Positions 3,566 through 44,071 of a stretch of DNA of 64,000 bases are shown here, one piece after another (position 1 is the stretch's first letter; each line of letters opens with the position of its first letter). The stretch covers positions 252,203 to 316,202 of the forward strand of contig VMGF01000001.1 of assembly GCA_007376445.1 (NCBI GenBank), in the 5' to 3' direction. The notes under the pieces were generated by a model. That model ran no database searches. It was given only the letters and a program-made list of their open reading frames with translations, and had not been told where the DNA came from. The stretch comes from Parcubacteria group bacterium Gr01-1014_3. Its GTDB lineage: Bacteria; Patescibacteriota; Minisyncoccia; UBA6257; WO2-44-18. The translations under genes were made by a program, and so were the position numbers.

Positions 3566-4276
3566 TTAACGAATTATTAGGTTGGTTGAGGCCGAAGCGC
3601 TTTCGAGAGCTTGGCGGATATTTTGCGCGCTGGCCTCGAGTTTAACTGAAGTTCCTCTCGATAGTCCCCGTGTATCTAAGTCTAGTATATTCGATGCATT
3701 TTCCTCGGTAGCAGCGCCGTTGGCGGTCCAAGTGAAGTTGATCTGATCTAGCCCAGTAATGTTAAAGAAATAAAGGAGCGTTTTTATCGGATTAAGTCCG
3801 GCGGATATTAAATTACCTGGAAATGGAGCATCAATCACCAGTTCCGGATTAACTATCGGCACGGTGATAGTTTTGGATACATCATTACCCTTATAGCCAA
3901 CTACGACTGCCTGAACCGTGGCGTCACCTCTTAGAGAGTCAGCTATGAAAGAAAAACTACGCAATCCCCTGCCCGATTGTCCTAGTTCGTCATTGACGTA
4001 CCAGCGGATCGTATATGGCGCGAGATCAACGAGACGATTATTTTCCAAGAGATCTACGCCGGCCACTACACGCGCTCCGTTAACTGGCAGGACTTTCCCG
4101 GCGTAATCCGGCGGAACGCTATTGCCCGCTTTCCAGCTGAGGAGAAGCTCTGGCGCCTGCTGGGCGGTAGAAGAATTAGGAATCAAGAATAAAGAATAAA
4201 GAATAAATACAATAAAAATTAACCCATAATTCTTGATTCTTGATTCTTGATTCTTAGCCACTGATTCTTGATTCAT
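3566..4276 (-). CDS. Secreted hypothetical protein (T4SS-like locus)
   Basis: It has an N-terminal hydrophobic segment. Its 5' end is built from (aagaatc)n heptamer repeats and their inverted copy. Confidence 0.45.
   Translation of the reverse strand: MNQESVAKNQESRIKNYGLIFIVFILYSLFLIPNSSTAQQAPELLLSWKAGNSVPPDYAGKVLPVNGARVVAGVDLLENNRLVDLAPYTIRWYVNDELGQSGRGLRSFSFIADSLRGDATVQAVVVGYKGNDVSKTITVPIVNPELVIDAPFPGNLISAGLNPIKTLLYFFNITGLDQINFTWTANGAATEENASNILDLDTRGLSRGTSVKLEASAQNIRQALESASASTNLIIR
4178..4273. repeat. (aagaatc)n heptamer tandem repeat with inverted partner (gaatcaagaataaagaataaagaat ... attcttgattcttgattcttgattctta)
   Basis: Perfect 7-bp periodicity. It overlaps the 5' end of ORF 3566..4276. 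Confidence 0.6.
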
Positions 4277-4284
4277 AATTCTGT

Positions 4285-4656: not shown

Positions 4657-4680
4657 GTGAGTAATGAATTATTTAAATAC

Positions 4681-4745
4681 TAATTTTAAATTTTGAATTA
4701 TAAATTTTAATTTAATTTAAAATTGAAAATTTAGAATTTATAATT
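4681..4745. repeat. AT-rich (aatttta/gaaaatt)-type periodic repeat block, intergenic
   Basis: taattttaaattttgaattataaattttaatttaatttaaaattgaaaatttagaattta. Partially palindromic. Confidence 0.5.
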
Positions 4746-6474
4746 ATTTGTTTTCCAATATCTGTTCCGGCTTGGTGGTGATCACCTGGTCTTCCCCATA
4801 CGAAGCTACTATCTGGATAGCCACGTGATTCAAGCCGGCGAAAAACAAACCCAATCCGATCTCTGCCTGAAGCAGAAGGTTTTTTTCGGCTTCGCTGAGA
4901 TTAAAAGTTTTCGCTACGCTATCGATCATCGCCGGAGATTGTTTCAAAAGAAGCTGCATTGAAGAGTTGGTGATGATCGGGCGGCCGAATGGCGAGCTCA
5001 AGAAGTCTTCCACGTCTTGAGTGATAGTGCTGATGCCGAGGAAATATTTTCTGGCTCTCTTTACCAGGGCGAACAAGAAAGAAGCGCCATCCGGATATTT
5101 CATCATCCACCAGGCCTCGTCGATAATCAGAACACGGCGTTTTAATTGAGCGCGGACGATATTCCAAATGAAGTTGAGTACGATATACATCGCGATCGGA
5201 CGAAGTTCGTCCTCAAGGTCACGGATCGAAAATACTACAAGACGATTTTTGACATCAATATTGGTCGGCTGATTAGTGAAGCCAGCATAACTTCCTTTGG
5301 TGAAGCGATAAAGACGTTCGGCGATCTCGCGGCCGCCCTCCATATTTTCTAAAACAGCCTGCAGGTTTTCCATGAGTGGCGGCCTGGCGGTCGAGAAATC
5401 TTTACCAGGCACGATATCAAAAGCCGCGTAAGTTTCTGAGATTGCGCGGTCCAGCAAGGCTTCTTCTTGCGGATTGATCTCGCCAAGCATCAGTTTTACT
5501 AAACCGGTCAGATTTACCACGTGAGACTTCAAAACATCCGCCGGATCTTCACCTTGCGGGATCACCGGAATATCAAAAGGGTTGATGTGGCTTTGCGAAG
5601 CTAACGAAATCTTAAAGAAGCTCCCACCCACCACATTAGCCAGCTGTTGATATTCATTTTCCGGATCAATAATCAAAACATCGGTGCCAGTCATCAAAAG
5701 ACGAAGCGCTTCGAGTTTGGTGGCGTAAGATTTACCGGCGCCGGATTTGGCAAAGATGACCATATTGGCGTTTTCGAGCGAGAAGCGGTCAAAGATGATG
5801 AGGGTGCTGTTGTGGCGGTTAATGCCGTACAAAATTCCTTCATCCGAGGTTAGTGTGGCCGAGACAAACGGAAAGAACGAGGATAATGGGCTGGAATTGA
5901 GCGGGGTGTGAATGTCCAGCTGGTCAGTGCCGAGTGGTAGAACCGAAGAGATGCCTTCGATCTGCTGGAAAAGCGCCGGCTTAGCGTAAACCAACTTACT
6001 TTCCAGGACATAAGTGATCTCGGACTCGAGTTTATTCAGATTTTCGATGGTGTCGGCATAAAGCGTGATATAAACTCCGACATTAAAAAGGTGCTCTTGT
6101 CCCTGCTGGAGAGAATCTCGGAGCGCTTCGATGTCTTGAATGGCAGTTTCTAAGACCGGATTCCGGACTAAGCCCTTCTCTTGCTGTTCAGCGATCTCCG
6201 CCTCCACGATGGCGGCTTTTTTACGGAGATTTTTGAGCGCCATCGGCGTGTCCACCGGATGAACGACGACGGAGATATCTAAAAGATTCGGCAGATTGAT
6301 GATCGGCGAGAACCAACCGGTCGAGAGATAACGAGGATAGGTGAAAATAAAAAGCGTCTTCGCGAATTTATTGCCGAGCTTCACATAATTCGGATTTACC
6401 TCAATAGCCGGTGGGGCGATGATGTTTTTTATTTCTTGTTCCATTATTTTATTGCGCTGGTTCGGCTCGGGCAA
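4744..6474 (-). CDS. VirB4/TrbE/CagE-like type IV secretion ATPase
   Basis: Walker A (FAKSGAGKSYATK) and Walker B (RVLIIDEAWWMM) motifs in a protein of about 576 aa. Gene order and size match VirB4-like ATPases of Gram-positive/CPR T4SS-like loci. Confidence 0.8.
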   Translation of the reverse strand: MPEPNQRNKIMEQEIKNIIAPPAIEVNPNYVKLGNKFAKTLFIFTYPRYLSTGWFSPIINLPNLLDISVVVHPVDTPMALKNLRKKAAIVEAEIAEQQEKGLVRNPVLETAIQDIEALRDSLQQGQEHLFNVGVYITLYADTIENLNKLESEITYVLESKLVYAKPALFQQIEGISSVLPLGTDQLDIHTPLNSSPLSSFFPFVSATLTSDEGILYGINRHNSTLIIFDRFSLENANMVIFAKSGAGKSYATKLEALRLLMTGTDVLIIDPENEYQQLANVVGGSFFKISLASQSHINPFDIPVIPQGEDPADVLKSHVVNLTGLVKLMLGEINPQEEALLDRAISETYAAFDIVPGKDFSTARPPLMENLQAVLENMEGGREIAERLYRFTKGSYAGFTNQPTNIDVKNRLVVFSIRDLEDELRPIAMYIVLNFIWNIVRAQLKRRVLIIDEAWWMMKYPDGASFLFALVKRARKYFLGISTITQDVEDFLSSPFGRPIITNSSMQLLLKQSPAMIDSVAKTFNLSEAEKNLLLQAEIGLGLFFAGLNHVAIQIVASYGEDQVITTKPEQILENK

Positions 6475-13021: not shown

Positions 13022-13846
13022 TTAGAAATGATTTGCTAGGGTTTTTAACATATCAATATCGAGATTTTGGGGGCGAATGTCGGGTTTTAGGCCTATTTGT
13101 TCGAGAATTTTAGTAATTTCAGCCTTATTTTTACCAAGCCCTTCGGTTTTACTCAGGGCAAGTCCCTCAGATAAGTTATTCAGCAGGGTCTTTCTAGGCT
13201 GCTTAAAAGCGATTTTTATGAATTTATAGTATCGTTCCGCCTCCTTGATTCTTAATTCTTGATTCTTGATTCTTAATGTTATTATTGCCGAATCAACTTC
13301 CGGCGCCGGATCAAAATCGGTGGATTTCAGATTCATCAGGATCTTCGGTTCAGCCCAGAACTGCGTGGCGGCCGAAAGCAGATTCATCCTGGGTGGTTCG
13401 GCAATTATTCTTTCCGCAACCTCTTTTTGGATCATTAAGATGGTGAGTGCCGGTTTTCCGCCAGCTGGCGGATTCAGTTCGCTTAATACGCGCAGCAGTT
13501 TTCCGGTGATATAGTAAGGGATGTTTCCAACCAGTTTCCAGTTGTCAGTTTTCAGTTTTTCAGTTAAATCGGGGAGAATTTTTAATGCATCGCCTGTCAG
13601 TATTTCAAACTGATTAACTGTAGCGCTAGCGTAACTCATTAACTGATTCGCTAAACGCGCGTCTTTTTCGATACCGATGAAATTACAACCGACTTTTCGG
13701 CATTCTTCGATCAGAGGAATGGTTAACGCTCCCTTGCCCGGCCCGACCTCGATGACGGTTTCGCCAGTTTTCAGCTCTAAAGACGCGATTATCTTTTGGA
13801 TCGCGGCTTTATTTTTTAGGAAGTGCTGACCTAGTTTTTTTGGCAT
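13022..13846 (-). CDS. rsmA: 16S rRNA (adenine1518/1519-N6)-dimethyltransferase
   Basis: N-terminal KKLGQHFL motif and a SAM-binding VIEVGPGKGALT motif. It contains an in-frame (ttcttga)n repeat encoding RIKNQELRIK. Confidence 0.85.
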   Translation of the reverse strand: MPKKLGQHFLKNKAAIQKIIASLELKTGETVIEVGPGKGALTIPLIEECRKVGCNFIGIEKDARLANQLMSYASATVNQFEILTGDALKILPDLTEKLKTDNWKLVGNIPYYITGKLLRVLSELNPPAGGKPALTILMIQKEVAERIIAEPPRMNLLSAATQFWAEPKILMNLKSTDFDPAPEVDSAIITLRIKNQELRIKEAERYYKFIKIAFKQPRKTLLNNLSEGLALSKTEGLGKNKAEITKILEQIGLKPDIRPQNLDIDMLKTLANHF

Positions 13847-16256: not shown

Positions 16257-17144
16257 TTGGCCCAAGTTGCCGATGCTTTCAGTCAGGAGTCTAATGAAGT
16301 TTCGGCTTCCGAGGGAGCGATCTTTGAAGAAGATTTTACTTTGGCCGAAGGCGGAGATAATGCCGGTGGCTTCGTGCTAGTGGACGCCGATTCTTTATTG
16401 GCGGTGAATAATCCCCTGAGTACGATCTTGCCGACTCGCGATGGATTAATTATTTATAAAGTTCAAAAAGGAGATTCGCTTTCTAAGATCGCGGCTAACT
16501 TCGGCATTTCGCTTAATACTATTTTCTGGGCGAACCAGAGCGTGAAGAACAGCATCAAGCCTGGCCAGGAGATCGTGATCTTACCGGTGTCCGGCGTGCT
16601 TCATCAGGTTGAAGACGGCGATACCGTGGATAGTTTGGTGGAACTTTATGGCGCGCCGCGCGAGAAAATTTTAAAATATAACAAGATCGTGGGTGGCTAT
16701 CTGAAGCCTGGCGTGACTGTGGTGATTCCGGGCGCGAATCCGAAGAAAGGATTAACGACCGTTTCCGTAAAAGACTTGCCGAGCTATCCGGGATATTTTA
16801 TTTTGCCGACGATCGGTTGGAACTGGGGAAATTTGCATAACTATAACGCTGTCGATATCGCCAACTCTTGCGGCACGCCTGTTTACGCGGCGGCTGAAGG
16901 CTTGGTGGCTGACGCGAAATCTTATGGCTGGAACGGCGGCTACGGCCACTATATTGAAATTGAACATCCAAATAAAGCGATCACTCGTTATTCTCACATG
17001 CAGAAAAACGCGGTCTCGACCGGAGACTATGTGGTTCAGGGCGATCTGATCGGCTACATCGGCAACACCGGCAACGTGCACGGCCCGACGGGATGCCATC
17101 TTCATTTTGAAGTCAGAGGGGCCAGGAATCCATTTGCAAAATAA
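16257..17144 (+). CDS. LysM-domain M23 family metallopeptidase
   Basis: LysM motif (YKVQKGDSLSKIAANFGISLNTIFWANQ) and M23 motifs (HYIEIEH...GNTGNVHGPTGCHLHFE). The listed start is TTG. The in-frame upstream stretch encodes a TM helix, so the true start may be a non-canonical codon near 16119-16140. Confidence 0.75.
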   Translation: MAQVADAFSQESNEVSASEGAIFEEDFTLAEGGDNAGGFVLVDADSLLAVNNPLSTILPTRDGLIIYKVQKGDSLSKIAANFGISLNTIFWANQSVKNSIKPGQEIVILPVSGVLHQVEDGDTVDSLVELYGAPREKILKYNKIVGGYLKPGVTVVIPGANPKKGLTTVSVKDLPSYPGYFILPTIGWNWGNLHNYNAVDIANSCGTPVYAAAEGLVADAKSYGWNGGYGHYIEIEHPNKAITRYSHMQKNAVSTGDYVVQGDLIGYIGNTGNVHGPTGCHLHFEVRGARNPFAK

Positions 17145-17160
17145 GGGCTCCAGACAACTA

Positions 17161-17292
17161 CTTTTTCGAAAACAGAATAATCCGGCTCCAGCAGCCGGAT
17201 TTTCTTCGCCCTCGGCACGCCGGTCCGACCTTTTGGTCGGACACCGATCTTAGGATAGACCAGCCGGCGCGCCTCCGGGATGTTCCGAAAAA
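17161..17292. repeat. GC-rich structured repeat element, copy A (bidirectional terminator hairpin plus structured module closed by a long-range helix)
   Basis: About 85% identical to 43939..44071. Helices are maintained by compensatory changes (outer helix tttttcg/cgaaaaa here versus cctcttt/aaagagg in copy B). Confidence 0.6.
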
Positions 17293-17341
17293 TCAGTTGT
17301 CCTCCGCTTTGTTAACTAAATGAAAGATTTTTATATAAAAA

Positions 17342-17385
17342 GCCCCCATTCTGTTTAACAGAATGGGGGCGATGTTTTATTTCGT
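17342..17385 (-). terminator. Rho-independent terminator (hairpin gcccccattctg-tttaa-cagaatgggggc plus T-run), serves the minus gene 17377..18228
   Basis: A 12-bp GC-rich stem with U-runs on both strands. Confidence 0.6.
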
Positions 17386-18228
17386 TTCTCGAATTACCAT
17401 TTCGACCAGCACTTCTTCGTAGTGACCGATCAATCCGGCAGCGCGTCCGAGCATGGCTCGGTAGGTGTTATGCCATCCCGGACGTTGGCTCGCGTTGATG
17501 ACCATGCCGTAGCAGGTCTCGAACCGATCCAGAAATTTATACACCGTTCGGCTGATGAAGATGAAACGCTTGATCAGAAGCTTCTGCTCTTCGTGGTTAA
17601 GCGCCGGTCCATCTTCGAGCTCTTTGGCGAGGATCATTTCCTTAACGAACTTGCTCAGCTCGCCAATCACATCGCCGAGACCCGCCAGCCAGCCTGGGAA
17701 TGGGATGCTCAGCTTGTGATGCCGCTCTTCGGGAGGCAGAGCTTCTTCGGTTGATACCAGTTCGTCGAGACTATCATCAGCTTTCGGATCCCCCATCTTG
17801 TACCAGAGATTCTGAAGAACTTCCTGGGTCCGCTTTTGGATCGTTGCCCGGTCTTGGGCATACTCGGGATGCAACAGCGGCACAAGATGAAAAACTCCCT
17901 CGGCCTCCACTACTTCGCCACCGGATTCGGTGTCCTTTTCAGAGGCGAAGTGCAGGGGTAGATCAAGGTCCGAAAGCTCTTTCCAAAGGTCTGCGAAGAT
18001 CTGTCGGAATTCGTCAGCCTTGCTAAGGTCACCATACTTCAGAGCCTTGATAAATTCTTTTGAGGTTTTGACCAATAAGTTCGCGACCGCGTAAGATCCG
18101 CCGATATCACGGCGCTGCTGCTCCGACTTGTCTTGAATGCTTTTCGAAATCCGATCGATATCATCGATTACCGGATTGCCCATGAGCGTAAACAGACGCT
18201 CTTCAAGCTCTCGCATTTGTCGAACCAT
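17377..18228 (-). CDS. Hypothetical protein, elevated GC (second gene of the GC-rich pair)
   Basis: A 283-aa ORF with a taggagc RBS before the ATG. No recognisable domain. Confidence 0.5.
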   Translation of the reverse strand: MVRQMRELEERLFTLMGNPVIDDIDRISKSIQDKSEQQRRDIGGSYAVANLLVKTSKEFIKALKYGDLSKADEFRQIFADLWKELSDLDLPLHFASEKDTESGGEVVEAEGVFHLVPLLHPEYAQDRATIQKRTQEVLQNLWYKMGDPKADDSLDELVSTEEALPPEERHHKLSIPFPGWLAGLGDVIGELSKFVKEMILAKELEDGPALNHEEQKLLIKRFIFISRTVYKFLDRFETCYGMVINASQRPGWHNTYRAMLGRAAGLIGHYEEVLVEMVIRETK

Positions 18229-18396
18229 ACTAAAAGCTCCTAAAAAAGAGTGAAAAGAACCATTGCTCGAAATGAGCAGAGTTCAAAGTTTTGTTCTTTT
18301 GTTAAAGAACTCATCATTAGTGGCTAGATTCCGCTTCACCCGCCATAGGCGGGCAAGCTTGCAAAGACTGCTAACAACTAATGATAAATTCTCTAA

Positions 18397-18443
18397 TTTT
18401 TAAAAAGGTGCCCCAGTGGAGTGTTTTGCACACTCCACTGGGG
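18397..18443 (-). terminator. Rho-independent terminator for gene 18481..19380 (14-bp stem ccccagtggagtgt/cacactccactgggg plus T5)
   Basis: A perfect hairpin followed by TTTTT on the minus strand. Confidence 0.65.
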
Positions 18444-18480
18444 CGTTGCTGGTTCTCGCTTGATCAGCCGTTGCGGCTGA

Positions 18481-19380
18481 TTAGACCCGACGCCGGAAGT
18501 CCCTGCCTCCCCGGAAGCCGTGCTTCGCGGAGCGGTTGACCTCGCCGAGGGCGTTGACGTTGGATCCAAGCTTGGTGAGCTTGGCCCGACGCCTTTCGTC
18601 CTGGGCCTTGACCTCGCCGATTTCCGCCCCCATCTCCTCCGCGATGCTGGTGGCTTCGGCGTGGGTGTGACCGTGGAAGATCCTGGAGTCCGTGCCCTGA
18701 GGCAACGTTTCCCGGTAGTCCCTCACACAGTCACGGCAGATCGCGCCGACTCGGAAGGTTCCATCCTCGTTCGGGAGAACGAAGAAGTTCCCGCTCCGAT
18801 ACGGCTCACCGGTCTTCTGGTTGATGACCGGCCTGTCGTCCTTCACGGAGGTCCAGGACATCGCCTGGAACTCCTCTTCGCCGATGTCGCACATCGCGAG
18901 GCCGGAGGTCGTGTCGTCGGGGCGAACGTCGCGCAGCGTTTTGAGCTGCTCGGCCTTCGTGCCTTCCTCGGTGAGCTTGTCCTGCAGCCAGACGATGGCT
19001 TCCTTCGTTTCCGCCAGCGTGAGCTGACGTCCGAGGCCCAGCGCCCGGTTCTTCAGGATCTGGAACCGCAGCCGGTAGTTGAAACCGGCCTTGGGATTCA
19101 CCGGGCTGGGACGGGTGTCCGCGTAGCCCCCGGCGATGAGGTAGTCCTGCGCCACGGGGGTGACACAGTAGCCTTCCAGCGAGAGGGGCTTGTACCCCTT
19201 CGTCTTGAGCTCCTTGTTTTTCTCGGCCATCTCAGCCGACGTCATCGGCTTGTCGCTCCGTTCGCGCTTGACCGGCTTGTCCGCCATCGGGGCGGGCTCG
19301 CTGCCTTCTGCCCGAGCCATCTTGAGGCCCTCGGCTCGCTGGTCCTCTCGGACCTCGTCCTTGCCATTCGATCCCTTCAT
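18481..19380 (-). CDS. Hypothetical protein, strongly GC-rich, with charged N-terminus and RGG-like C-terminal tail
   Basis: The start is set at MKGSNGKD (ATG at 19380), which is preceded by GGAGG with 6-nt spacing. The longer listed ORF (to 19434) adds a spurious hydrophobic extension. Confidence 0.5.
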   Translation of the reverse strand: MKGSNGKDEVREDQRAEGLKMARAEGSEPAPMADKPVKRERSDKPMTSAEMAEKNKELKTKGYKPLSLEGYCVTPVAQDYLIAGGYADTRPSPVNPKAGFNYRLRFQILKNRALGLGRQLTLAETKEAIVWLQDKLTEEGTKAEQLKTLRDVRPDDTTSGLAMCDIGEEEFQAMSWTSVKDDRPVINQKTGEPYRSGNFFVLPNEDGTFRVGAICRDCVRDYRETLPQGTDSRIFHGHTHAEATSIAEEMGAEIGEVKAQDERRRAKLTKLGSNVNALGEVNRSAKHGFRGGRDFRRRV

Positions 19381-19494
19381 GAAAAACCTCCAGAAAAGGA
19401 AACCAAAAAACCAGAAGTTACTCCAAAAAATCAACCTCGAGCCACATAGCTAGAGGCCGGAGTAACGTTGTGCCCTTGTTTAAGATCTGCGCTC

Positions 19495-19522
19495 ATTATA
19501 GCAGATAGGGATATTTTGTCAA
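19495..19522 (-). promoter_or_regulatory. Consensus sigma70-type promoter (TTGACA-16-TATAAT) for the GC-rich gene 18481..19380
   Basis: The minus strand reads TTGACAaaatatccctatctgcTATAAT. A cccgcc/ggcggg hairpin motif (19525..19545) sits immediately upstream. Confidence 0.6.
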
Positions 19523-19672
19523 TACCCCGCCAGAGGCGGGCAAGCCCCCCATCTGCCTTAATTCAAAGTGCTTCTGGTTAATAAAACACCCCAGTTTAGC
19601 CACAGGTTTCGGTTGACATTCTCGGTTTTTATTCTTAATATATCGGTGGTTGTTTTACAAAGGAGTATTACC

Positions 19673-21046
19673 TTGGAAGATCGAAGCGAGCGTCATGTGA
19701 ATTTCGTTGACCTATTGTTTGTGGATATCGATGGCATGCGGAAGGCAGTCAGCATGCCTTACGAGCGCTATGCAGCCGGCATGAAAGAGGCAGCATTAAA
19801 AAAAGCTGAACAGAAGGACAAGGAAGACGTAGAATTTTACAAATGGTTTGACGGCTCTTCGATTGCTGGGTTTAATTCAATCGAAAACAGCGACATGCGA
19901 CTGAAGCCGGACGAGAGTACTTTTCATGTACTTCCCTGGACCGAGTCTCCATTTGAGACGGCTGTGGTTTTGTGCGATGTGCTTACTAAAGACGGTGAGC
20001 CATACACGGATGATCCTAAGCAAATGCTCAAGAATATCTTGGAGCGTTATAAGAAAAATGGCTGGCTTTATAAAGTTGGCTCCGAGGTCGAGTTCTTTAT
20101 CTTGAAGAAGGACGGCGATCGCTGGGTGCCGCATGACGCTGGGGAATATTTCCATTTCAAGCCCGGCGATGAAGGTGAGCGAATGAGGCAAGAAATCTGC
20201 AACTATCTTTTCCGAATGGGCGTGAAGCCCGAAGCGCATCACCACGAGGTTGCTCCAGGTCAGCACGAAATCGCGATCGAATTTGATGACGCTGAAAAGT
20301 CCGCGTTAAACATTTATCTTTTGAAGATGACGATTGAGTATGTGGCGAGCCAGCATGGTTATCGCGCGACCTTTATGCCAAAGCCCTTTGCTGGCATGAA
20401 CGGATCCGGCATGCACACGCATCAGAGCGTTTCTGACCTGGAAGGCAAGAATCTTTTCTATAATCCGGAAGAAACCGAGAAAGACAAAAGCCATCTTTCG
20501 GATCTGGCCAAAAAGTTCATGGCCGGCCAGCTGAAGTACCTGGAGAATATGTGCGTCTTCATCGCGCCGACCGTCAATTCCTACAAGCGCCTGATTCCCG
20601 GATATGAAGCCCCGGTGTATGTTTGCTGGGGTAAGCAGAATCGCTCTGCCGCTCTGCGTTTGCCGGCGATGACTAAAGAAGAGATGGAAAAGGGCATGCG
20701 CGTTGAGCTGCGTTGTCCAGATCCCAGCTGTAATCCCTACATCGCCTATACCGCCATGGCGATGGCTGGCTTTGAGGGAATGGACGGAGCGCCGGGTATG
20801 AGCGGCTTGCCAGAACCGATCGAAGAGAACGCTTACAAGATGACCGCTGATGAGAGGGATGAGCGGAACATTTATTCTCTTCCCAGTAATCTGGATCGAG
20901 CGATGACCGAGGCCAACATTTCCAATCTGCAATCCCTTGCTTTTAATGAAAGCTTTATGCAGAAGTTCAGCGACCGGAAGCGCGCCGAGTGGCGCGACTA
21001 CCACAGCTTCCAGGTGACGCCTTGGGAAATTGAAAAATATTTGTGA
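19673..21046 (+). CDS. glnA: Glutamine synthetase (type I-like)
   Basis: N-terminal beta-grasp motif (VNFVDLLFVDIDG), NGSGMHTHQS, and a C-terminal NPY region. The start is likely TTG at 19673 after an aaaggag RBS; the listed ORF begins earlier at 19568. Confidence 0.7.
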   Translation: MEDRSERHVNFVDLLFVDIDGMRKAVSMPYERYAAGMKEAALKKAEQKDKEDVEFYKWFDGSSIAGFNSIENSDMRLKPDESTFHVLPWTESPFETAVVLCDVLTKDGEPYTDDPKQMLKNILERYKKNGWLYKVGSEVEFFILKKDGDRWVPHDAGEYFHFKPGDEGERMRQEICNYLFRMGVKPEAHHHEVAPGQHEIAIEFDDAEKSALNIYLLKMTIEYVASQHGYRATFMPKPFAGMNGSGMHTHQSVSDLEGKNLFYNPEETEKDKSHLSDLAKKFMAGQLKYLENMCVFIAPTVNSYKRLIPGYEAPVYVCWGKQNRSAALRLPAMTKEEMEKGMRVELRCPDPSCNPYIAYTAMAMAGFEGMDGAPGMSGLPEPIEENAYKMTADERDERNIYSLPSNLDRAMTEANISNLQSLAFNESFMQKFSDRKRAEWRDYHSFQVTPWEIEKYL

Positions 21047-22325: not shown

Positions 22326-22407
22326 AAAAACGCAAGATAATTTTAAATTCTCAATTTTAAATTTGAAATTAAATTAAAATTTATAATTAAAAATTTAAAA
22401 TTAAAAA
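22326..22407. repeat. AT-rich (aatttta/aaaattt)-type periodic repeat block, intergenic
   Basis: ataattttaaattctcaattttaaatttgaaattaaattaaaatttataattaaaaatttaaaattaaaaaa. Confidence 0.5.
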
Positions 22408-39383: not shown

Positions 39384-39998
39384 TTAGGCTATATAAGTTT
39401 TTAAATTTTCTAGACAATCAAATGCTTCGCCACCTAATTCATTATATAAAGATGAGGCAAACTGTTTATTTGGGAAAAGTATTTTCTTAAACCTTTTCTT
39501 CGTTATAAGGTAACTAACCAGTTTCTTGTAATCGCCGTCCCCAGAAATTAAGACAACTTGATTAAAGTTTTGGTTGTCTATCAAATTTTTCATAACTTCA
39601 AAAACTAGATCAGCATCAACATTACCCTTCTTTTTTGATTTGGATTTATTGTGATGTTCTTTGAATACCAAAATAAAACCAGCCTTTTGTATCTCATTGT
39701 ACATATCCGCATTATTATCTTTTAGGTTTCCTAAAAGATAATATGCCTCAGAAACATTATAGTTTTCTTTCAGGTACACCCTCAGCTTGGCCAAATTTAC
39801 TTCCCATGCGTTTCCGCAATTACAATCCGCCAACTTTATTTCTTTTATAGAAATTTTGAGCCTAGCGGCACATTTATAACATTTAGTGGTTCCAAAATGC
39901 ATGTTCTGTCCGTCAACAAAAGCGAGATTTGGTTTATCGGATTTTTCCGAAAATACCTCGGCCTCTGTTTTTGTTGCCTGTTCTTGATATTTATCCAT
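39384..39998 (-). CDS. NYN/LabA-like (PIN-fold) nuclease domain protein with inserted zinc ribbon
   Basis: Motifs FVDGQNM, GNVDADLVFEVM and LISGDGDY with an internal CxxC...CNC segment. AT-rich gene. Confidence 0.55.
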   Translation of the reverse strand: MDKYQEQATKTEAEVFSEKSDKPNLAFVDGQNMHFGTTKCYKCAARLKISIKEIKLADCNCGNAWEVNLAKLRVYLKENYNVSEAYYLLGNLKDNNADMYNEIQKAGFILVFKEHHNKSKSKKKGNVDADLVFEVMKNLIDNQNFNQVVLISGDGDYKKLVSYLITKKRFKKILFPNKQFASSLYNELGGEAFDCLENLKTYIA

Positions 39999-40126
39999 TT
40001 ATCAAAATTATGCGATAACCAATCTCAAGTATCAACCCCATTTACCTCTATGGGAGAGTCAGTTTTTTGATTGACGTCCGACGGTGAAAAGTTTATTATC
40101 TTTTAAGTTCTAAAAGGAGGTGACAG

Positions 40127-40330
40127 ATGATCGGTTGGCTGATCTTCGCCGTGGTGGTTATCGCGATCGTGGGATGGAGGGTAGTCAGCTTTTTTCGCAG
40201 TCGTAAGATTGAAAAAGCGAAACGAGAAAAAGAATTAGATCGCGCGTACGAAGAGTACTACTCTGATCCCGTGAACATTCAGTGGCAGAAGCAGGCACGC
40301 GAAGAGTTCTGGGCGATGATGCGTTGGTAA
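40127..40330 (+). CDS. Small single-TM protein (67 aa)
   Basis: Strong RBS aaaaggaggtgacag before the ATG, an N-terminal TM helix, and a terminator hairpin after the stop. Confidence 0.45.
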   Translation: MIGWLIFAVVVIAIVGWRVVSFFRSRKIEKAKREKELDRAYEEYYSDPVNIQWQKQAREEFWAMMRW

Positions 40331-40380
40331 ATATATTTGGCCGCCTATTTAGGTGGCCATTTTAATTTAGCGAGATAGGA

Positions 40381-40408
40381 TTGACTTTATAACGTAATCT
40401 GTTAAGAT
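40381..40408 (+). promoter_or_regulatory. Promoter TTGACT-16-TAAGAT for the GC-rich gene 40468..41088
   Basis: Near-consensus -35/-10 elements, with the RBS aaaggagg 7 nt before the ATG. Confidence 0.5.
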
Positions 40409-40467
40409 ACGGTGAAATCTTGGCAATGCGCTGAGATAACAATCGTACCTTGAAAGGAGGAGTAGCA

Positions 40468-41088
40468 ATGCTCACGAACACAGGACGGACAATAACATTT
40501 CCTGAATTCTCCGGTATTCGGTGTTTGATGATGCCTTACATCCAGGGTCGGTCGGCGTCGATTCCCGACATCTACGCCCCGTATCGGGAGATCGTCGATT
40601 CGGTGTTTCTGCGAAAGGGCGACATCGGTTTCCTGACGATTGACGAGTCTCTTGCCACCGAAGGGAAGCCCCACCGAGGCCAGCGCGCACAATACGCCCG
40701 GGCATTGCACACAGAAGCAGGAAGGGATCCGAATAAAATCTACTACGGTTGGGGCGGAGGATGGGGCAAAGCACCACACCGCGTCACCCTCGACCGGGGT
40801 GTCCGGATCCTGCTCGCCAACAATCTCGACGAGAGCTGCGCCGTGTGGGATGGAGAACACGAGGACACGTCGCCTGACGGAGACATCGGACACGCGGCGG
40901 CCCAGTATCCGTATCGCGACGCCACGTTTCTCAGGGCCGGTGATGTCCACGAGATCGGCATCCTGACGCCACACGAAAGCTTGCCGGTGCCACGAGACTT
41001 CAACCGGCAGTTCTTGCGGATCATCTCGTCTGGAGTCCATGGGCGCGAGGAGTACTTCACTCGCAATCCTCTGGTGCCGTTCAATTAA
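40468..41088 (+). CDS. Hypothetical protein, strongly GC-rich (probable foreign origin)
   Basis: Start at ATG 40468 after aaaggagg (the listed ORF begins at the TTG inside the RBS). It contains a YYGWGGGWGKAPH motif and has no assignable family. The minus-strand ORF 40402..41109 is treated as an antisense artefact. Confidence 0.5.
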   Translation: MLTNTGRTITFPEFSGIRCLMMPYIQGRSASIPDIYAPYREIVDSVFLRKGDIGFLTIDESLATEGKPHRGQRAQYARALHTEAGRDPNKIYYGWGGGWGKAPHRVTLDRGVRILLANNLDESCAVWDGEHEDTSPDGDIGHAAAQYPYRDATFLRAGDVHEIGILTPHESLPVPRDFNRQFLRIISSGVHGREEYFTRNPLVPFN

Positions 41089-41101
41089 ACTGATAAGCTG
41101 A

Positions 41102-41136
41102 CCCGCCATCTCCTCTGGAGCTCTGGCGGGTTTTTA
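41102..41136 (+). terminator. Rho-independent terminator (cccgcca...tggcggg plus T5)
   Basis: A 7-bp GC stem with an internally structured loop, followed by TTTTTA. Confidence 0.6.
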
Positions 41137-43938: not shown

Positions 43939-44071
43939 CCTCTTTCCGGAAACAGAATAAAACGGCTCCAGCGGCCGTTTTTTCTTCGCCCTCGGCGCGC
44001 CGCTCCGGCTTAAGTCGGAGACCGATTATAGGAGAACAGCCGGCGCGCCTCCGGGATGTTCCGTAAAGAGG
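43939..44071. repeat. GC-rich structured repeat element, copy B
   Basis: See copy A at 17161..17292. It includes the bidirectional terminator acggctccagcggccgt plus T-run, a GGCGCGCC core, and the closing helix cctctttccgg/ccgtaaagagg. Confidence 0.6.

What the first reader, a model, noticed from the sequence alone, without database searches (positions are those of the whole stretch)
17377..19547. GC-rich two-gene operon (17377..18228 and 18481..19380, minus strand) with a perfect consensus promoter and a shared upstream hairpin motif; likely horizontally acquired unit of unknown function
Both ORFs have markedly higher GC than the window background (by eye, high-50s % versus low-40s %). That GC level also produces a long spurious antisense ORF (18520..19449). 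The upstream gene is driven by an exact TTGACA-16-TATAAT promoter (19495..19522, minus) with GGAGG-6-ATG. Each gene is preceded 110-150 bp upstream by the motif accCGCCAnAGGCGGGcaagc (18337..18358 and 19525..19545), a 20/22 direct repeat forming a cccgcc/ggcggg hairpin. Each has its own strong terminator (18397..18443 and 17342..17385). Neither protein (about 283 and 300 aa; the latter has a K/E-rich N-terminus and an RGG-like C-terminus) matches a family I can name. The unit is bounded on one side by copy A of the structured repeat. A compact, foreign two-gene cassette with dedicated regulation is the typical footprint of defence or toxin-type systems, though that is conjecture.
Basis: partly seen in the sequence, partly recalled or inferred. 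Interest (0 to 1): 0.6.

Follow-up and report, generated by a model that had tools for sequence, protein, structure and literature searches.

The report
TRAX-like nuclease plus hypervariable GC-rich partner
Two neighbouring 'hypothetical' genes of a tiny groundwater bacterium are a distant relative of the TRAX/C3PO RNA-cutting enzyme and a fast-changing, very GC-rich protein of unknown role, and related genomes keep them side by side with their own RNA hairpins, so this is not a recently imported defence cassette.

Summary
The described features are real. The window comes from Parcubacteria group bacterium Gr01-1014_3, a member of the Candidate Phyla Radiation (CPR).

- **Gene A (17377..18228, minus)** is a very divergent TRAX/C3PO-type nuclease. 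This rests on the fold match, profile matches and an invariant ExxE…DxxxE metal-binding tetrad.
- **Gene B (18481..19380, minus)** belongs to a rare family with no known domain. The family has a zinc-ribbon-like core and an RG-rich tail.
- **Composition:** only B is an outlier (GC 64%, GC3 86%). A is ordinary.
- **B's GC3 is a family trait:** it is 83-90% in all nine loci examined, whose backgrounds are 43-50% GC.
- **Synteny:** the order B–A–M23 peptidase–UvrD recurs in related genomes, and B–A adjacency also occurs in a Saccharibacteria genome.
- **B is swapped as a cassette:** the closest relative has M23 at 95% and A at 88% identity, but B at only 24%.
- **Conserved regulation:** every B has a near-consensus promoter. 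A-family genes in 14 loci are preceded by a covarying leader hairpin with no Rfam match.
- **Defence models:** they found nothing for the window's proteins.

Best reading: a resident RNA-metabolism module in which abundant B partners or regulates nuclease A.

The parts
19495..19522 (-). Promoter of gene B: TTGACA, 16 nt, TGcTATAAT (extended -10). A conserved GCAG lies at about 19487-19490.
   Evidence: It matches 12 of 12 consensus positions. The same TTGACAA-N15/16-TGnTAtAAT sits upstream of B in all 9 loci. GCAG follows it in 7 of the 9; L010 and L016 lack it.
19526..19545 (.).
   Evidence: It is absent at this position in L010, L002, L006, L008 and L012, so it is a lineage-specific insertion.
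19417..19466 (-). Two-tier hairpin in the roughly 105-nt 5' UTR of B (GUUACUCC…GGAGUAAC enclosing GCCUC.AGCU…GGCU.GAGGU).
   Evidence: It appears in the minimum-free-energy fold and the centroid. Seven of the eight B leaders folded have a two-tier hairpin at the same relative place with different sequences; L012 has a single stem. Whole-leader z-scores are -0.7 to -4.2. Covariation was not formally counted.
19387..19391 (-). Shine-Dalgarno sequence GGAGG, 6 nt before the ATG of B.
   Evidence: Read directly from the sequence.
18481..19380 (-). Gene B (NCBI G01um10143_298, TSC89808.1), 299 aa, basic (pI 8.7). It has a disordered K/E-rich N-terminus with an ERSDKPxT motif, a helical region with RQLTLAE, a zinc-ribbon-like core (C164…GNF…C215xxC218) and an RGG/RR tail. 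GC is 64% and GC3 is 86%.
   Evidence: The differences between orthologues are largest at codon position 3 of this frame. There is no Pfam, PDB, PADLOC or PHROGs match. The AlphaFold2 model is poor, with pLDDT 52.
18520..19449 (+). Antisense ORF of 309 aa, a by-product of B's codon usage and not a gene.
   Evidence: It is in the codon-aligned antisense frame. Stops there need the sense codons TTA, CTA or TCA, and B uses none of them. The product is not in the protein collection.
18410..18444 (-). Intrinsic terminator of B: a 15-bp stem with 10 G-C pairs, followed by a T run.
   Evidence: A terminator hairpin at the same place, with different stem sequences, is seen in five relatives.
18302..18396 (-). 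Leader hairpin of gene A. The basal stem GAAUUUA…/…(A/G)AGUUC is conserved and the inner stem covaries. In this genome the apex carries palindrome copy 2 (18339-18358).
   Evidence: The inverted repeat has 26-nt arms. The fold is -45 kcal/mol, z -7.2. The element lies upstream of A-family genes in 14 loci. Over 16 pairs, 87.5% of cells are paired against 69.9% in shuffles (0 of 500 shuffles reach it), and 10 pairs show compensatory changes. There is no Rfam match.
18237..18241 (-). Shine-Dalgarno sequence AGGAG, 8 nt before the ATG of A at 18228.
   Evidence: Read from the sequence. NCBI's start is four codons further in.
17377..18228 (-). Gene A (NCBI G01um10143_297), 283 aa, acidic (pI 5.2), all-helical TRAX/C3PO-like nuclease. 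The predicted metal ligands are E105 (17914-17916), E108 (17905-17907), D186 (17671-17673) and E190 (17659-17661). K193 sits where NeC3PO has R124.
   Evidence: Fold and profile matches. Invariant residues. Catalytic residues of C3PO are taken from PMC5100593.
17342..17370 (.). Two-way intrinsic terminator that ends gene A.
   Evidence: 13-bp stem with T runs on both strands.

Best explanation
This is a resident, vertically inherited module of CPR bacteria, not an imported island.

**Gene A.** It encodes a very divergent member of the translin/TRAX superfamily. It most resembles the single-subunit archaeal C3PO nucleases and keeps the four acidic residues (ExxE…DxxxE) that hold the two catalytic metal ions. 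I therefore predict a Mg2+/Mn2+-dependent RNase (with DNase activity as well) that probably works as a closed oligomer.

**Gene B.** It encodes a basic protein with a zinc-ribbon-like core and an RG-rich tail. It is made in large amounts from a near-consensus promoter through a structured 5' UTR.

**Expression of A.** No promoter was found for A. It is most likely made in smaller amounts by read-through of B's terminator. Its mRNA begins with a long, evolutionarily maintained hairpin, a likely site of processing or autoregulation.

**Proposed function (inferred).** B is the nucleic-acid-binding partner or regulator of nuclease A in RNA processing or turnover. This is loosely comparable to translin beside TRAX, although B is unrelated to translin.

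**B's composition (inferred).** B's extreme GC3 is a family-wide trait. B alleles are replaced as cassettes between close relatives, so recombination-linked GC bias (biased gene conversion) is the most economical cause.

**Shown:** the identity of A, the synteny, the conserved promoter, the covarying A leader, family-wide high GC3 in B, and the cassette swap. **Inferred:** enzymatic activity, the B–A partnership, read-through, and the cause of the GC bias.
For: **A is TRAX/C3PO-like**
- The AlphaFold2 model has pLDDT 82 and is all helical.
- The top Foldseek hits in the PDB are NeC3PO, AfC3PO, translin and human C3PO, with probability 0.99-1.0 and target-normalised TM-score up to 0.79.
- The A-family profile hits AfTRAX at E 7.7e-4, Drosophila TRAX at 2.8e-3 and human TRAX at 0.08. 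The alignment places the invariant E105/E108 on 'QELVEA' and D186/E190 on 'ADAVGEL'. The D in that motif is the residue mutated in the AfC3PO–RNA structure.
- NCBIfam PRK14562 matches A at E 7.7e-7. An AfTRAX fragment hits the same models at 2.5e-27.
- One family member hits Pfam Translin at E 5e-4.

**The module is resident**
- The order B–A–M23–UvrD(–RsmA) occurs in L002, L006, L010 and L012, and L001 has a B-type gene in the same position. B–A also occurs in Saccharibacteria locus L008.
- B is 61-68% identical between the window and L002/L006. UvrD is 64% and M23 is 66-67%.

**High expression of B**
- All 9 loci have a near-consensus promoter.
- All 8 leaders folded contain a stable hairpin, two-tiered in 7.

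**A leader hairpin:**

**GC3 and cassette replacement**
- B has GC3 0.83-0.90 in 9 loci.
- B's codon use is a general preference for G or C at the third position (CGG, GCG, ACG, CCG as well as NNC), not a narrow 'optimal' set.
- Window versus L010: 85-90% nucleotide identity across M23, A and the spacer, dropping to about 50% from 18513 across B. Protein identity is M23 95% and A 88%, and B 24%.
- Recombining bacterial genes are reported to have raised GC3 (PMC4450053).

**An RG-rich partner upstream of A recurs in other forms**
- B (basic, pI 8-9.5) stands next to acidic A (pI about 5.2).
- A 464-494-aa protein with a Gly/Arg-rich tail precedes A in L003, L009 and L024.
- A 62-aa zf_Tbcl_2 zinc-finger protein ending in RRDFRR precedes A in L023 and L025.
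Against: - No activity, oligomeric state or B–A contact has been tested.
- A itself does not reach any Pfam hit. The profile-to-PDB E-values are modest, 1e-3 to 1e-1.
- B has no detectable homology to anything characterised, and its model is unreliable.
- In the window's B subtype the second cysteine of the first zinc knuckle is missing, so zinc binding is uncertain.
- The pairing is not obligatory. L016 has B next to M23 without A, and many A genes lack B.
- B and A types reassort. The window's B type goes with an A only 27% identical in L002 and L006. This argues against a tight, specific protein–protein fit.
- Absence of an A promoter rests on one consensus scan.
- Biased gene conversion is not demonstrated here. 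Selection on mRNA stability or translation could also hold GC3 high. The window holds no ribosomal protein or elongation factor genes to calibrate codon preference.
Confidence: 0.5

Rival explanations
1. B and A are neighbours by history only. A is a stand-alone housekeeping RNase of CPR bacteria. B is an unrelated, abundant nucleic-acid-binding protein (for example nucleoid- or ribosome-associated) that happens to sit upstream of A in some lineages.
For: - A occurs without B in the LeuRS–TrmD–A–SecDF context.
- B occurs without A in L016.
- B and A types reassort.
- Each gene has its own terminator.
- The leader hairpin follows A and not B. It is absent in L016.
Against: - B–A adjacency in the same order, with the same spacer layout, survives in at least 8 loci across Parcubacteria and Saccharibacteria, even with different outer flanks.
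- No promoter was found for A downstream of B's terminator.
- In lineages without B, another RG-rich protein sits directly upstream of A.
- A's GC3 is raised only when B is next to it.
Confidence: 0.28
2. This is the first reader's idea: a defence or toxin–antitoxin-like cassette. A is a nuclease toxin or effector. B is its abundant, fast-evolving inhibitor or sensor, and it diversifies under conflict with phages or hosts.
For: - The layout is two genes, with an abundant upstream partner and a less expressed nuclease downstream.
- B is hypervariable, 24% identical where the neighbours are 88-95%.
- B is basic and A is acidic.
Against: - The window's proteins have no PADLOC hit. The 16 A-family members give only two weak single-member hits.
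- No relatives were found on viral contigs.
- The position is fixed among housekeeping genes, with no mobility genes nearby.
- Neither gene needs the other nearby.
- B at 300 aa, a 252-bp spacer and an internal terminator are unlike classical type II modules.
- B and A types reassort freely.
Confidence: 0.12
3. This is a recently acquired foreign island. The whole unit came from a GC-rich donor and has not yet drifted to the host's composition.
For: B has GC 64% against 46% for the window, and the antisense ORF is typical of GC-rich genes.
Against: - A's composition is ordinary.
- The unit is syntenic in relatives at the same divergence as its flanks.
- B's GC3 is 0.83-0.90 in nine genomes that are deeply diverged from one another. 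Over such distances an imported gene should have drifted to host composition.
- There is no integrase, transposase or direct-repeat boundary.
Confidence: 0.05

Closest known systems
Archaeal single-subunit C3PO (AfTRAX of Archaeoglobus fulgidus, PDB 3zc0/3zc1; NeTrax of Nanoarchaeum equitans, PDB 5jr9/5jrc)
   Same: - Same all-helical fold (Foldseek probability 1.0, target-normalised TM-score 0.65-0.79).
- Same ExxE…DxxxE metal-binding tetrad, plus a basic residue three positions after the last Glu (K193 against R124).
- Matches the same NCBIfam models.
- Encoded as a single TRAX-like gene with no translin paralogue.
   Different: - The sequence is too divergent for Pfam Translin.
- This subtype has an insert of about 55 aa between the two halves of the active site. 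The 242-245-aa subtype lacks it.
- The host is a CPR bacterium. The literature read here lists prokaryotic members only in archaea and Chloroflexi, and no paper links translin with CPR.
- It has a conserved structured mRNA leader and, often, an RG-rich gene upstream.
Eukaryotic C3PO (translin–TRAX hetero-octamer, for example PDB 3qb5 and 3pja)
   Same: - It is a nuclease subunit with the same catalytic residues.
- The idea of a more abundant nucleic-acid-binding partner beside a less abundant catalytic subunit is similar (6:2 in human C3PO, PMC5100593). Here this similarity is inferred only from expression signals.
   Different: - B is not translin-like. It has predicted beta strands, Cys knuckles and an RG tail, and it shows no profile or fold match.
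- No evidence exists for a B–A complex.
Type II toxin–antitoxin and two-gene defence cassettes
   Same: - Compact two-gene layout.
- A strongly expressed upstream gene and a downstream nuclease.
- A rapidly diversifying upstream partner.
   Different: - No significant defence-model hits.
- An internal terminator and a long spacer.
- Stable housekeeping synteny.
- Either gene can occur alone.
- Not found on viral contigs.
Small zf_Tbcl_2 (PF23477) treble-clef zinc-finger proteins
   Same: - In L023 and L025 a 62-aa member (E 2e-21) with a Gly-rich N-terminus and an RRDFRR C-terminus occupies B's place: upstream of A and followed by a terminator.
- B also has CxxC-type knuckles and ends in …DFRRRV.
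   Different: - Profile comparison with the B family is not significant (probability 3.7%).
- B is five times longer and has extra helical and disordered regions.

Membership tests
Translin/TRAX superfamily (C3PO nucleases; Pfam PF01997) | All-alpha helical-bundle fold of translin/TRAX | tested here: met
   The AlphaFold2 model has pLDDT 82 and 9 helices. The top 11 Foldseek PDB hits are all C3PO or translin chains, with probability 1.0 and target-normalised TM-score up to 0.79.
Translin/TRAX superfamily (C3PO nucleases; Pfam PF01997) | Significant sequence-profile match to the family | tested here: inconclusive
   - The window protein has no Pfam hit at E<=1.
- The family profile hits TRAX chains at E 7.7e-4 to 0.08.
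- One of 16 members hits PF01997 at E 5e-4.
- The NCBIfam archaeal-TRAX models hit at E 7.7e-7 but far below their curated cut-off: 28 bits against 228.
Translin/TRAX superfamily (C3PO nucleases; Pfam PF01997) | TRAX-type catalytic tetrad (Glu, Glu, Asp, Glu; NeC3PO E82/E85/D117/E121) | tested here: met
   E105, E108, D186 and E190 are invariant in 16 family members. They align to the ExxE and DxxxE motifs of AfTRAX and Drosophila TRAX. The residue roles come from PMC5100593.
Translin/TRAX superfamily (C3PO nucleases; Pfam PF01997) | Closed octameric barrel with internal active sites; metal-dependent cleavage of single-stranded RNA | not testable with these tools
Known anti-phage defence systems (PADLOC) | A protein matches a defence-system model | tested here: not met
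   Both window proteins give 0 families at E<=1. Among 16 A-family members there are only two weak single-member hits, E 0.002-0.003. B-family relatives were not scanned against PADLOC.
Known anti-phage defence systems (PADLOC) | Variable, island-like or mobile genomic context | tested here: not met
   The same housekeeping neighbours (M23 peptidase, UvrD, RsmA, MetK or tRNA-Arg) occur in five relatives. There are no relatives on viral contigs.
Type II toxin–antitoxin module | Obligate adjacent pair, co-transcribed, with short or overlapping spacing | tested here: not met
   The spacer is 252 bp and holds a strong terminator. B occurs without A, and A occurs without B.
Recently acquired genomic island | Atypical composition of the whole unit, absence from close relatives, mobility genes or repeats at the borders | tested here: not met
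   Only B is atypical. The unit is present and syntenic in relatives. B's high GC3 is family-wide. No mobility genes or bounding direct repeats were found.
Rfam RNA families (for the A leader hairpin and the B 5' UTR) | A match to any curated covariance model | tested here: not met
   At gathering scores the window shows only 7 tRNAs. In 17100-19700 at E<=5 there are only sub-threshold matches, most of them at the 17342-17370 terminator.

The most novel reading that the evidence does not exclude
B–A would be a CPR-specific two-component analogue of C3PO. An unrelated, abundant zinc-ribbon/RG-tail protein takes the place of translin as the RNA-selecting subunit of a TRAX-like nuclease. B's cassette-like hypervariability and recombination-driven GC3 would then reflect an arms race over which RNAs are targeted (from phages, hosts or mobile elements). 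That would make this a new kind of RNA-directed conflict or surveillance system, carried in the core genome of ultra-small symbiotic bacteria and controlled through a previously undescribed leader RNA.
Probability: 0.12. Interest if true: 0.8.

Novelty: new variant of a known kind. Interest (0 to 1): 0.55.

Why it matters
- **Wider reach of a known enzyme family.** Translin/TRAX (C3PO) nucleases are known from eukaryotic RNA interference and tRNA processing, and from archaea. The literature read here lists Chloroflexi as the only bacterial phylum that has them. A distinct, Pfam-invisible clade spread through CPR bacteria, in both tRNA-related and B-linked contexts, extends the family. It also names a gene now labelled 'hypothetical' in many genomes assembled from metagenomes.
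- **An unexplained compositional pattern.** B keeps GC3 at 83-90% in genomes of 43-50% GC across deep divergence, and it is swapped as a cassette between near-identical genomes. This is a clean natural case for testing recombination-linked GC bias against selection on synonymous sites in bacteria.
- **A new RNA element.** The covarying leader hairpin upstream of A-family genes is a candidate new cis-regulatory RNA.
- **A caution for annotation.** High GC together with an antisense ORF does not by itself indicate a foreign island.

Tried and rejected
- **Weak single-sequence hits for B.** B matched Cas6e/Cse3 in the PDB (E 0.04-0.05, aa 81-142) and Pfam BTRD1 (E 0.0025, below cut-off). I rejected both, because the 16-member B profile finds nothing in the PDB and no family recurs across members.
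- **Weak single-sequence hits for A.** A matched RAD50 and OspC in the PDB at chance level.
- **Fold search with the B model.** The best E-value is 0.33, to small ribosomal zinc-ribbon proteins. The model is too poor (pLDDT 52) to use.
- **Phage origin.** Neither family has relatives on viral contigs, and PHROGs gives nothing useful.
- **The palindrome as a shared operator.** It is absent at both sites in L010 and in the other loci. L010 carries a similar CCGCCTTTGGCGG at a different place.
- **A promoter for A.** The scan found none. Reading the conserved TT(G/T/A)ACA at the 3' foot of the hairpin as a -35 element fails, because no -10 follows it in any locus (own reading).
- **Consensus fold of the B 5' UTRs from a MAFFT alignment.** It gave no structure because the alignment is poor, so I folded each sequence separately.
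- **The antisense ORF as the real gene.** I rejected this on the codon-position pattern of substitutions and its absence from protein collections.
- **Translational selection as the cause of B's GC3.** It could not be calibrated, because the window has no ribosomal protein or elongation factor genes. The broad third-position G/C preference argues against it.
- **The 494-aa and 62-aa upstream partners as B homologues.** Neither comparison is significant by hhalign.


Full report
**Source and observation.** Exact matches identify the window as Parcubacteria group bacterium Gr01-1014_3, a member of the Candidate Phyla Radiation (CPR). Gene A is G01um10143_297 and gene B is G01um10143_298. Both are annotated as hypothetical proteins and lie on a 400-kb contig.

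- ORF A is at 17377..18228 and ORF B at 18481..19380, both on the minus strand.
- A TTGACA-16-TGcTATAAT promoter at 19522..19495 matches 12 of 12 consensus positions.
- GGAGG lies 6 nt before B's ATG, and AGGAG lies 8 nt before A's ATG.
- A 15-bp terminator follows B at 18444..18410. A two-way terminator follows A at 17342..17370.
- The motif GCTTGCCCGCCnnnGGCGGG occurs exactly twice in 64 kb, against a chance expectation of 0.17.
- The antisense ORF 18520..19449 exists.

**Composition.** Across 61 long ORFs of the window, mean GC3 is 0.50 with sd 0.08.
- B is an extreme outlier, with GC 0.64 and GC3 0.86 from the ATG start.
- A is not an outlier, with GC 0.52 and GC3 0.60.
- The antisense ORF lies in the codon-aligned frame. 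It can only be stopped by the sense codons TTA, CTA or TCA, and B never uses them. It is therefore a by-product of B's codon usage, and no gene caller has recorded it.
- Between B orthologues, differences are largest at codon position 3 of B's frame. This confirms that B's frame is the coding one.

**Gene A is a TRAX/C3PO-type nuclease.** Pfam, PADLOC and PHROGs gave nothing. NCBIfam PRK14562 matched aa 169-205 at E 7.7e-7. These models are named 'haloacid dehalogenase superfamily protein', but a fragment of Archaeoglobus AfTRAX hits them at 2.5e-27. They therefore describe archaeal TRAX homologues.
- *Fold.* An AlphaFold2 model built on 7 homologues has pLDDT 82 and is all helical. Its best PDB matches by Foldseek are NeC3PO, AfC3PO, fungal translin and human C3PO, with probability 0.99-1.0 and target-normalised TM-score up to 0.79.
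- *Profile.* A 16-member family profile hits AfTRAX (E 7.7e-4), Drosophila TRAX (2.8e-3) and human TRAX (0.08). One member hits Pfam Translin at 5e-4.
- *Active site.* E105, E108, D186, E190 and K193 are invariant in the family. They align to AfTRAX 'QELVEA' and 'ADAVGELRR'. The NeC3PO paper assigns exactly these positions (E82, E85, D117, E121) to coordination of two metal ions, and R124 to substrate binding. AfC3PO D114 is the aspartate mutated in the RNA complex (PMC5100593).
- *Distribution.* That paper lists prokaryotic members only in five archaeal phyla and Chloroflexi. No paper in the library links translin with CPR.

**Gene B.** It is rare. The indexed search found four close relatives among 5.8 billion clusters. 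An exhaustive profile search of 1.84 billion representatives found 18.
- Members are 230-320 aa and basic.
- They share a disordered N-terminus with an ERSD(K)P(L)T motif, a VTPAA motif, an RQLTLAE helix and a core of Cys knuckles flanking a G·P·R·GNF strand. They also share a K·GF·G·RR…RR tail.
- In the window's subtype the second Cys of the first knuckle is missing.
- No Pfam family recurs across members. The profile finds nothing in the PDB. The AlphaFold2 model is poor, with pLDDT 52, and its fold search is meaningless.

**Context and inheritance.** The order B–A–(M23/LysM peptidase, opposite strand)–UvrD–RsmA recurs in L002, L006, L010 and L012, and in L001 with a B-type gene in B's place. 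MetK and tRNA-Arg(TCG) lie upstream in several of these loci. B–A adjacency also occurs in a Saccharibacteria genome assembled from a metagenome, with different outer neighbours (L008).

Between the window and L002/L006, B is 61-68% identical. This equals UvrD (64%) and M23 (66-67%), as expected for vertical descent.

The pairing is frequent but not obligatory:
- L016 has B directly beside M23 with no A.
- A-family genes also follow a 464-494-aa protein with a Gly/Arg-rich tail (L003, L009, L024).
- In L023 and L025, A sits between TrmD and SecDF, downstream of LeuRS. There a 62-aa zf_Tbcl_2 zinc-finger protein ending in RRDFRR precedes A. Neither of these upstream proteins is demonstrably homologous to B.
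- Neither family has relatives on viral contigs.

**B's GC3 and cassette replacement.** B has GC3 0.83-0.90 in all nine loci, whose remaining sequence is 43-50% GC. A has GC3 0.59-0.79 when it lies beside B and 0.39-0.43 when it does not.

B's codon use is a broad preference for G or C at the third position: AAG 91%, GAC 95%, TTC 100%, and frequent CGG, GCG, ACG and CCG.

The closest relative, L010, has M23 at 95% and A at 88% identity. Its B is only 24% identical, recognisable through the zinc-ribbon part and the first roughly 20 residues. Nucleotide identity is 85-90% from M23 through A and the spacer up to window position 18513. It then falls to about 50% across B's body.

B and A subtypes also reassort. 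The window's B subtype is paired in L002 and L006 with an A only 27% identical. So B, and to a lesser degree A, is exchanged as a cassette at a fixed locus.

Recombining bacterial genes are reported to have raised GC3 (PMC4450053). I take biased gene conversion as the most economical cause of B's GC3, but it is not proven here.

**Regulatory anatomy.**
- *B promoter.* All nine B loci carry TTGACAA-N15/16-TGnTAtAAT. A GCAG follows in seven of them.
- *B leader.* The leader is 90-130 nt. All eight leaders folded contain a stable hairpin about 20-25 nt into the transcript. It is two-tiered in seven, with unrelated sequences, and a single stem in L012. Whole-leader z-scores are -0.7 to -4.2.
- *B–A spacer.* After B's terminator, all seven spacers examined contain a second long hairpin, with z -3.4 to -7.2.
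- *A leader hairpin.* Its foot, GAAUUUA…/…(A/G)AGUUC(UUU), is conserved and its interior changes in a compensated way. Fourteen loci with the RAGTTCTTT foot motif just upstream of an A-family gene yielded a hairpin in this register. They include loci where A follows the larger Gly/Arg-tailed protein and loci where the upstream gene is cut off. The motif is absent in L016, which lacks A.
- *Covariation.* On a base-anchored, gap-free alignment of 14 loci, 87.5% of cells pair against 69.9% in shuffles (0 of 500 shuffles reach it). Ten of 16 pairs show double changes. The covariation score is 0.53, against 0.18 when shuffled and 0.07-0.15 when the partners are slid. One caveat applies: the 5' arm was located by best pairing, although it coincides with the conserved GAATTTA-type foot (one or two substitutions in some loci) in all 14.
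- *Rfam.* There is no match.
- *A promoter.* No promoter-like site precedes A. A is therefore probably expressed by read-through at a lower level than B.

In the window it sits at the apex of the A leader hairpin and directly upstream of B's -35 element. L010 lacks it at both places and has a similar CCGCCTTTGGCGG elsewhere in the spacer. The other loci lack it entirely. It is a lineage-specific small palindromic insertion and not a conserved operator.

**Interpretation.**
- *Shown:* A is a TRAX/C3PO-like protein with an intact catalytic signature. The B–A unit is resident and syntenic. B's promoter and A's leader structure are conserved. High GC3 is intrinsic to the B family. B is replaced as a cassette.
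- *Inferred:* A is an active metal-dependent RNase. B is an abundant nucleic-acid-binding partner or regulator of A. A is expressed by read-through. Recombination drives B's GC3.
- *Rivals:* the two genes are neighbours only (0.28); a defence or toxin–antitoxin cassette (0.12); a recent foreign island (0.05).

**Verdict.** This is a new, divergent bacterial branch of a known nuclease family. It comes with an uncharacterised hypervariable partner and a previously undescribed leader RNA.

Noticed in passing
window 17163-17291 and 43943-44067: A GC-rich element of about 130 nt occurs twice, with 86-94% identity over the 65-nt and 35-nt repeat blocks. Each copy begins 15-19 nt after the stop codon of a plus-strand gene and contains a terminator-like hairpin. 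Nothing in 17100-19700 reaches an Rfam gathering score, and L010 has no room for it between A and M23.
   Followed up: partly
L023 about 3680-3870 and L025 about 3620-3810: An uncalled 62-aa ORF lies between TrmD and the A-family gene. It is a zf_Tbcl_2 (PF23477, E 2e-21) zinc-finger protein with a GGGGFGG N-terminus and an RRDFRR C-terminus, and its own terminator follows. It occupies the place that B has in the window.
   Followed up: partly
L003 2654-4048, L009 3131-4615, L024 2260-3654: In a third arrangement, a 464-494-aa protein with no Pfam domain on record and a Gly/Arg-rich tail precedes the A-family gene. The L003 and L009 proteins are 38% identical, and their GC3 is moderately raised (0.59-0.60). 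The same leader hairpin precedes A there.
   Followed up: partly
NCBIfam NF011156-NF011161 (PRK14562): These models are named 'haloacid dehalogenase superfamily protein', but a fragment of the crystallised AfTRAX (C3PO) matches them at E 2.5e-27. The name seems to be wrong and would hide TRAX homologues in annotations.
   Followed up: yes
L010 about 1275-1295: The closest relative carries a similar small palindrome (CCGCCTTTGGCGG) directly after B's terminator. It has none at the two places where the window has its copies. This suggests that small GC-rich palindromes insert at varying spots in this lineage.
   Followed up: partly
L002 3328-3400, L006 3465-3537, L012 3776-3848, L013 1294-1366: A tRNA-Arg(TCG) gene lies divergently just upstream of B's promoter in several relatives, next to MetK. 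In the window the upstream neighbour is glutamine synthetase instead, so the flank on that side has been rearranged.
   Followed up: no
window 39384-41109: A very low-GC gene (39384-39998, GC 0.33) lies about 450 nt from a GC-rich stretch (GC 0.57). That stretch has overlapping ORFs on both strands (40450-41088 plus, 40402-41109 minus). The minus-strand ORF has no Pfam hit. The plus-strand ORF looks more protein-like but was not searched.
   Followed up: no
window 4210-4284, 13229-13275, 4668-4759, 22339-22402 and others: Short AT-rich periodic repeats recur at several places in the window. One type is 7-nt TTCTTGA units and the other is AATTTTnAATTTT-type runs.
   Followed up: no
window 19568-19700 and 19613-19641: The glutamine synthetase ORF as listed starts at a GTG and has about 40 residues ahead of the Gln-synt_N domain. 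A TTGACA-17-TAATAT promoter-like site lies inside that extension. The true start is therefore probably further downstream.
   Followed up: no
window 18228 versus NCBI start: NCBI's model of gene A starts four codons downstream (279 aa). The ATG at 18228 has AGGAG 8 nt upstream and matches the start of the closest homologue.
   Followed up: partly
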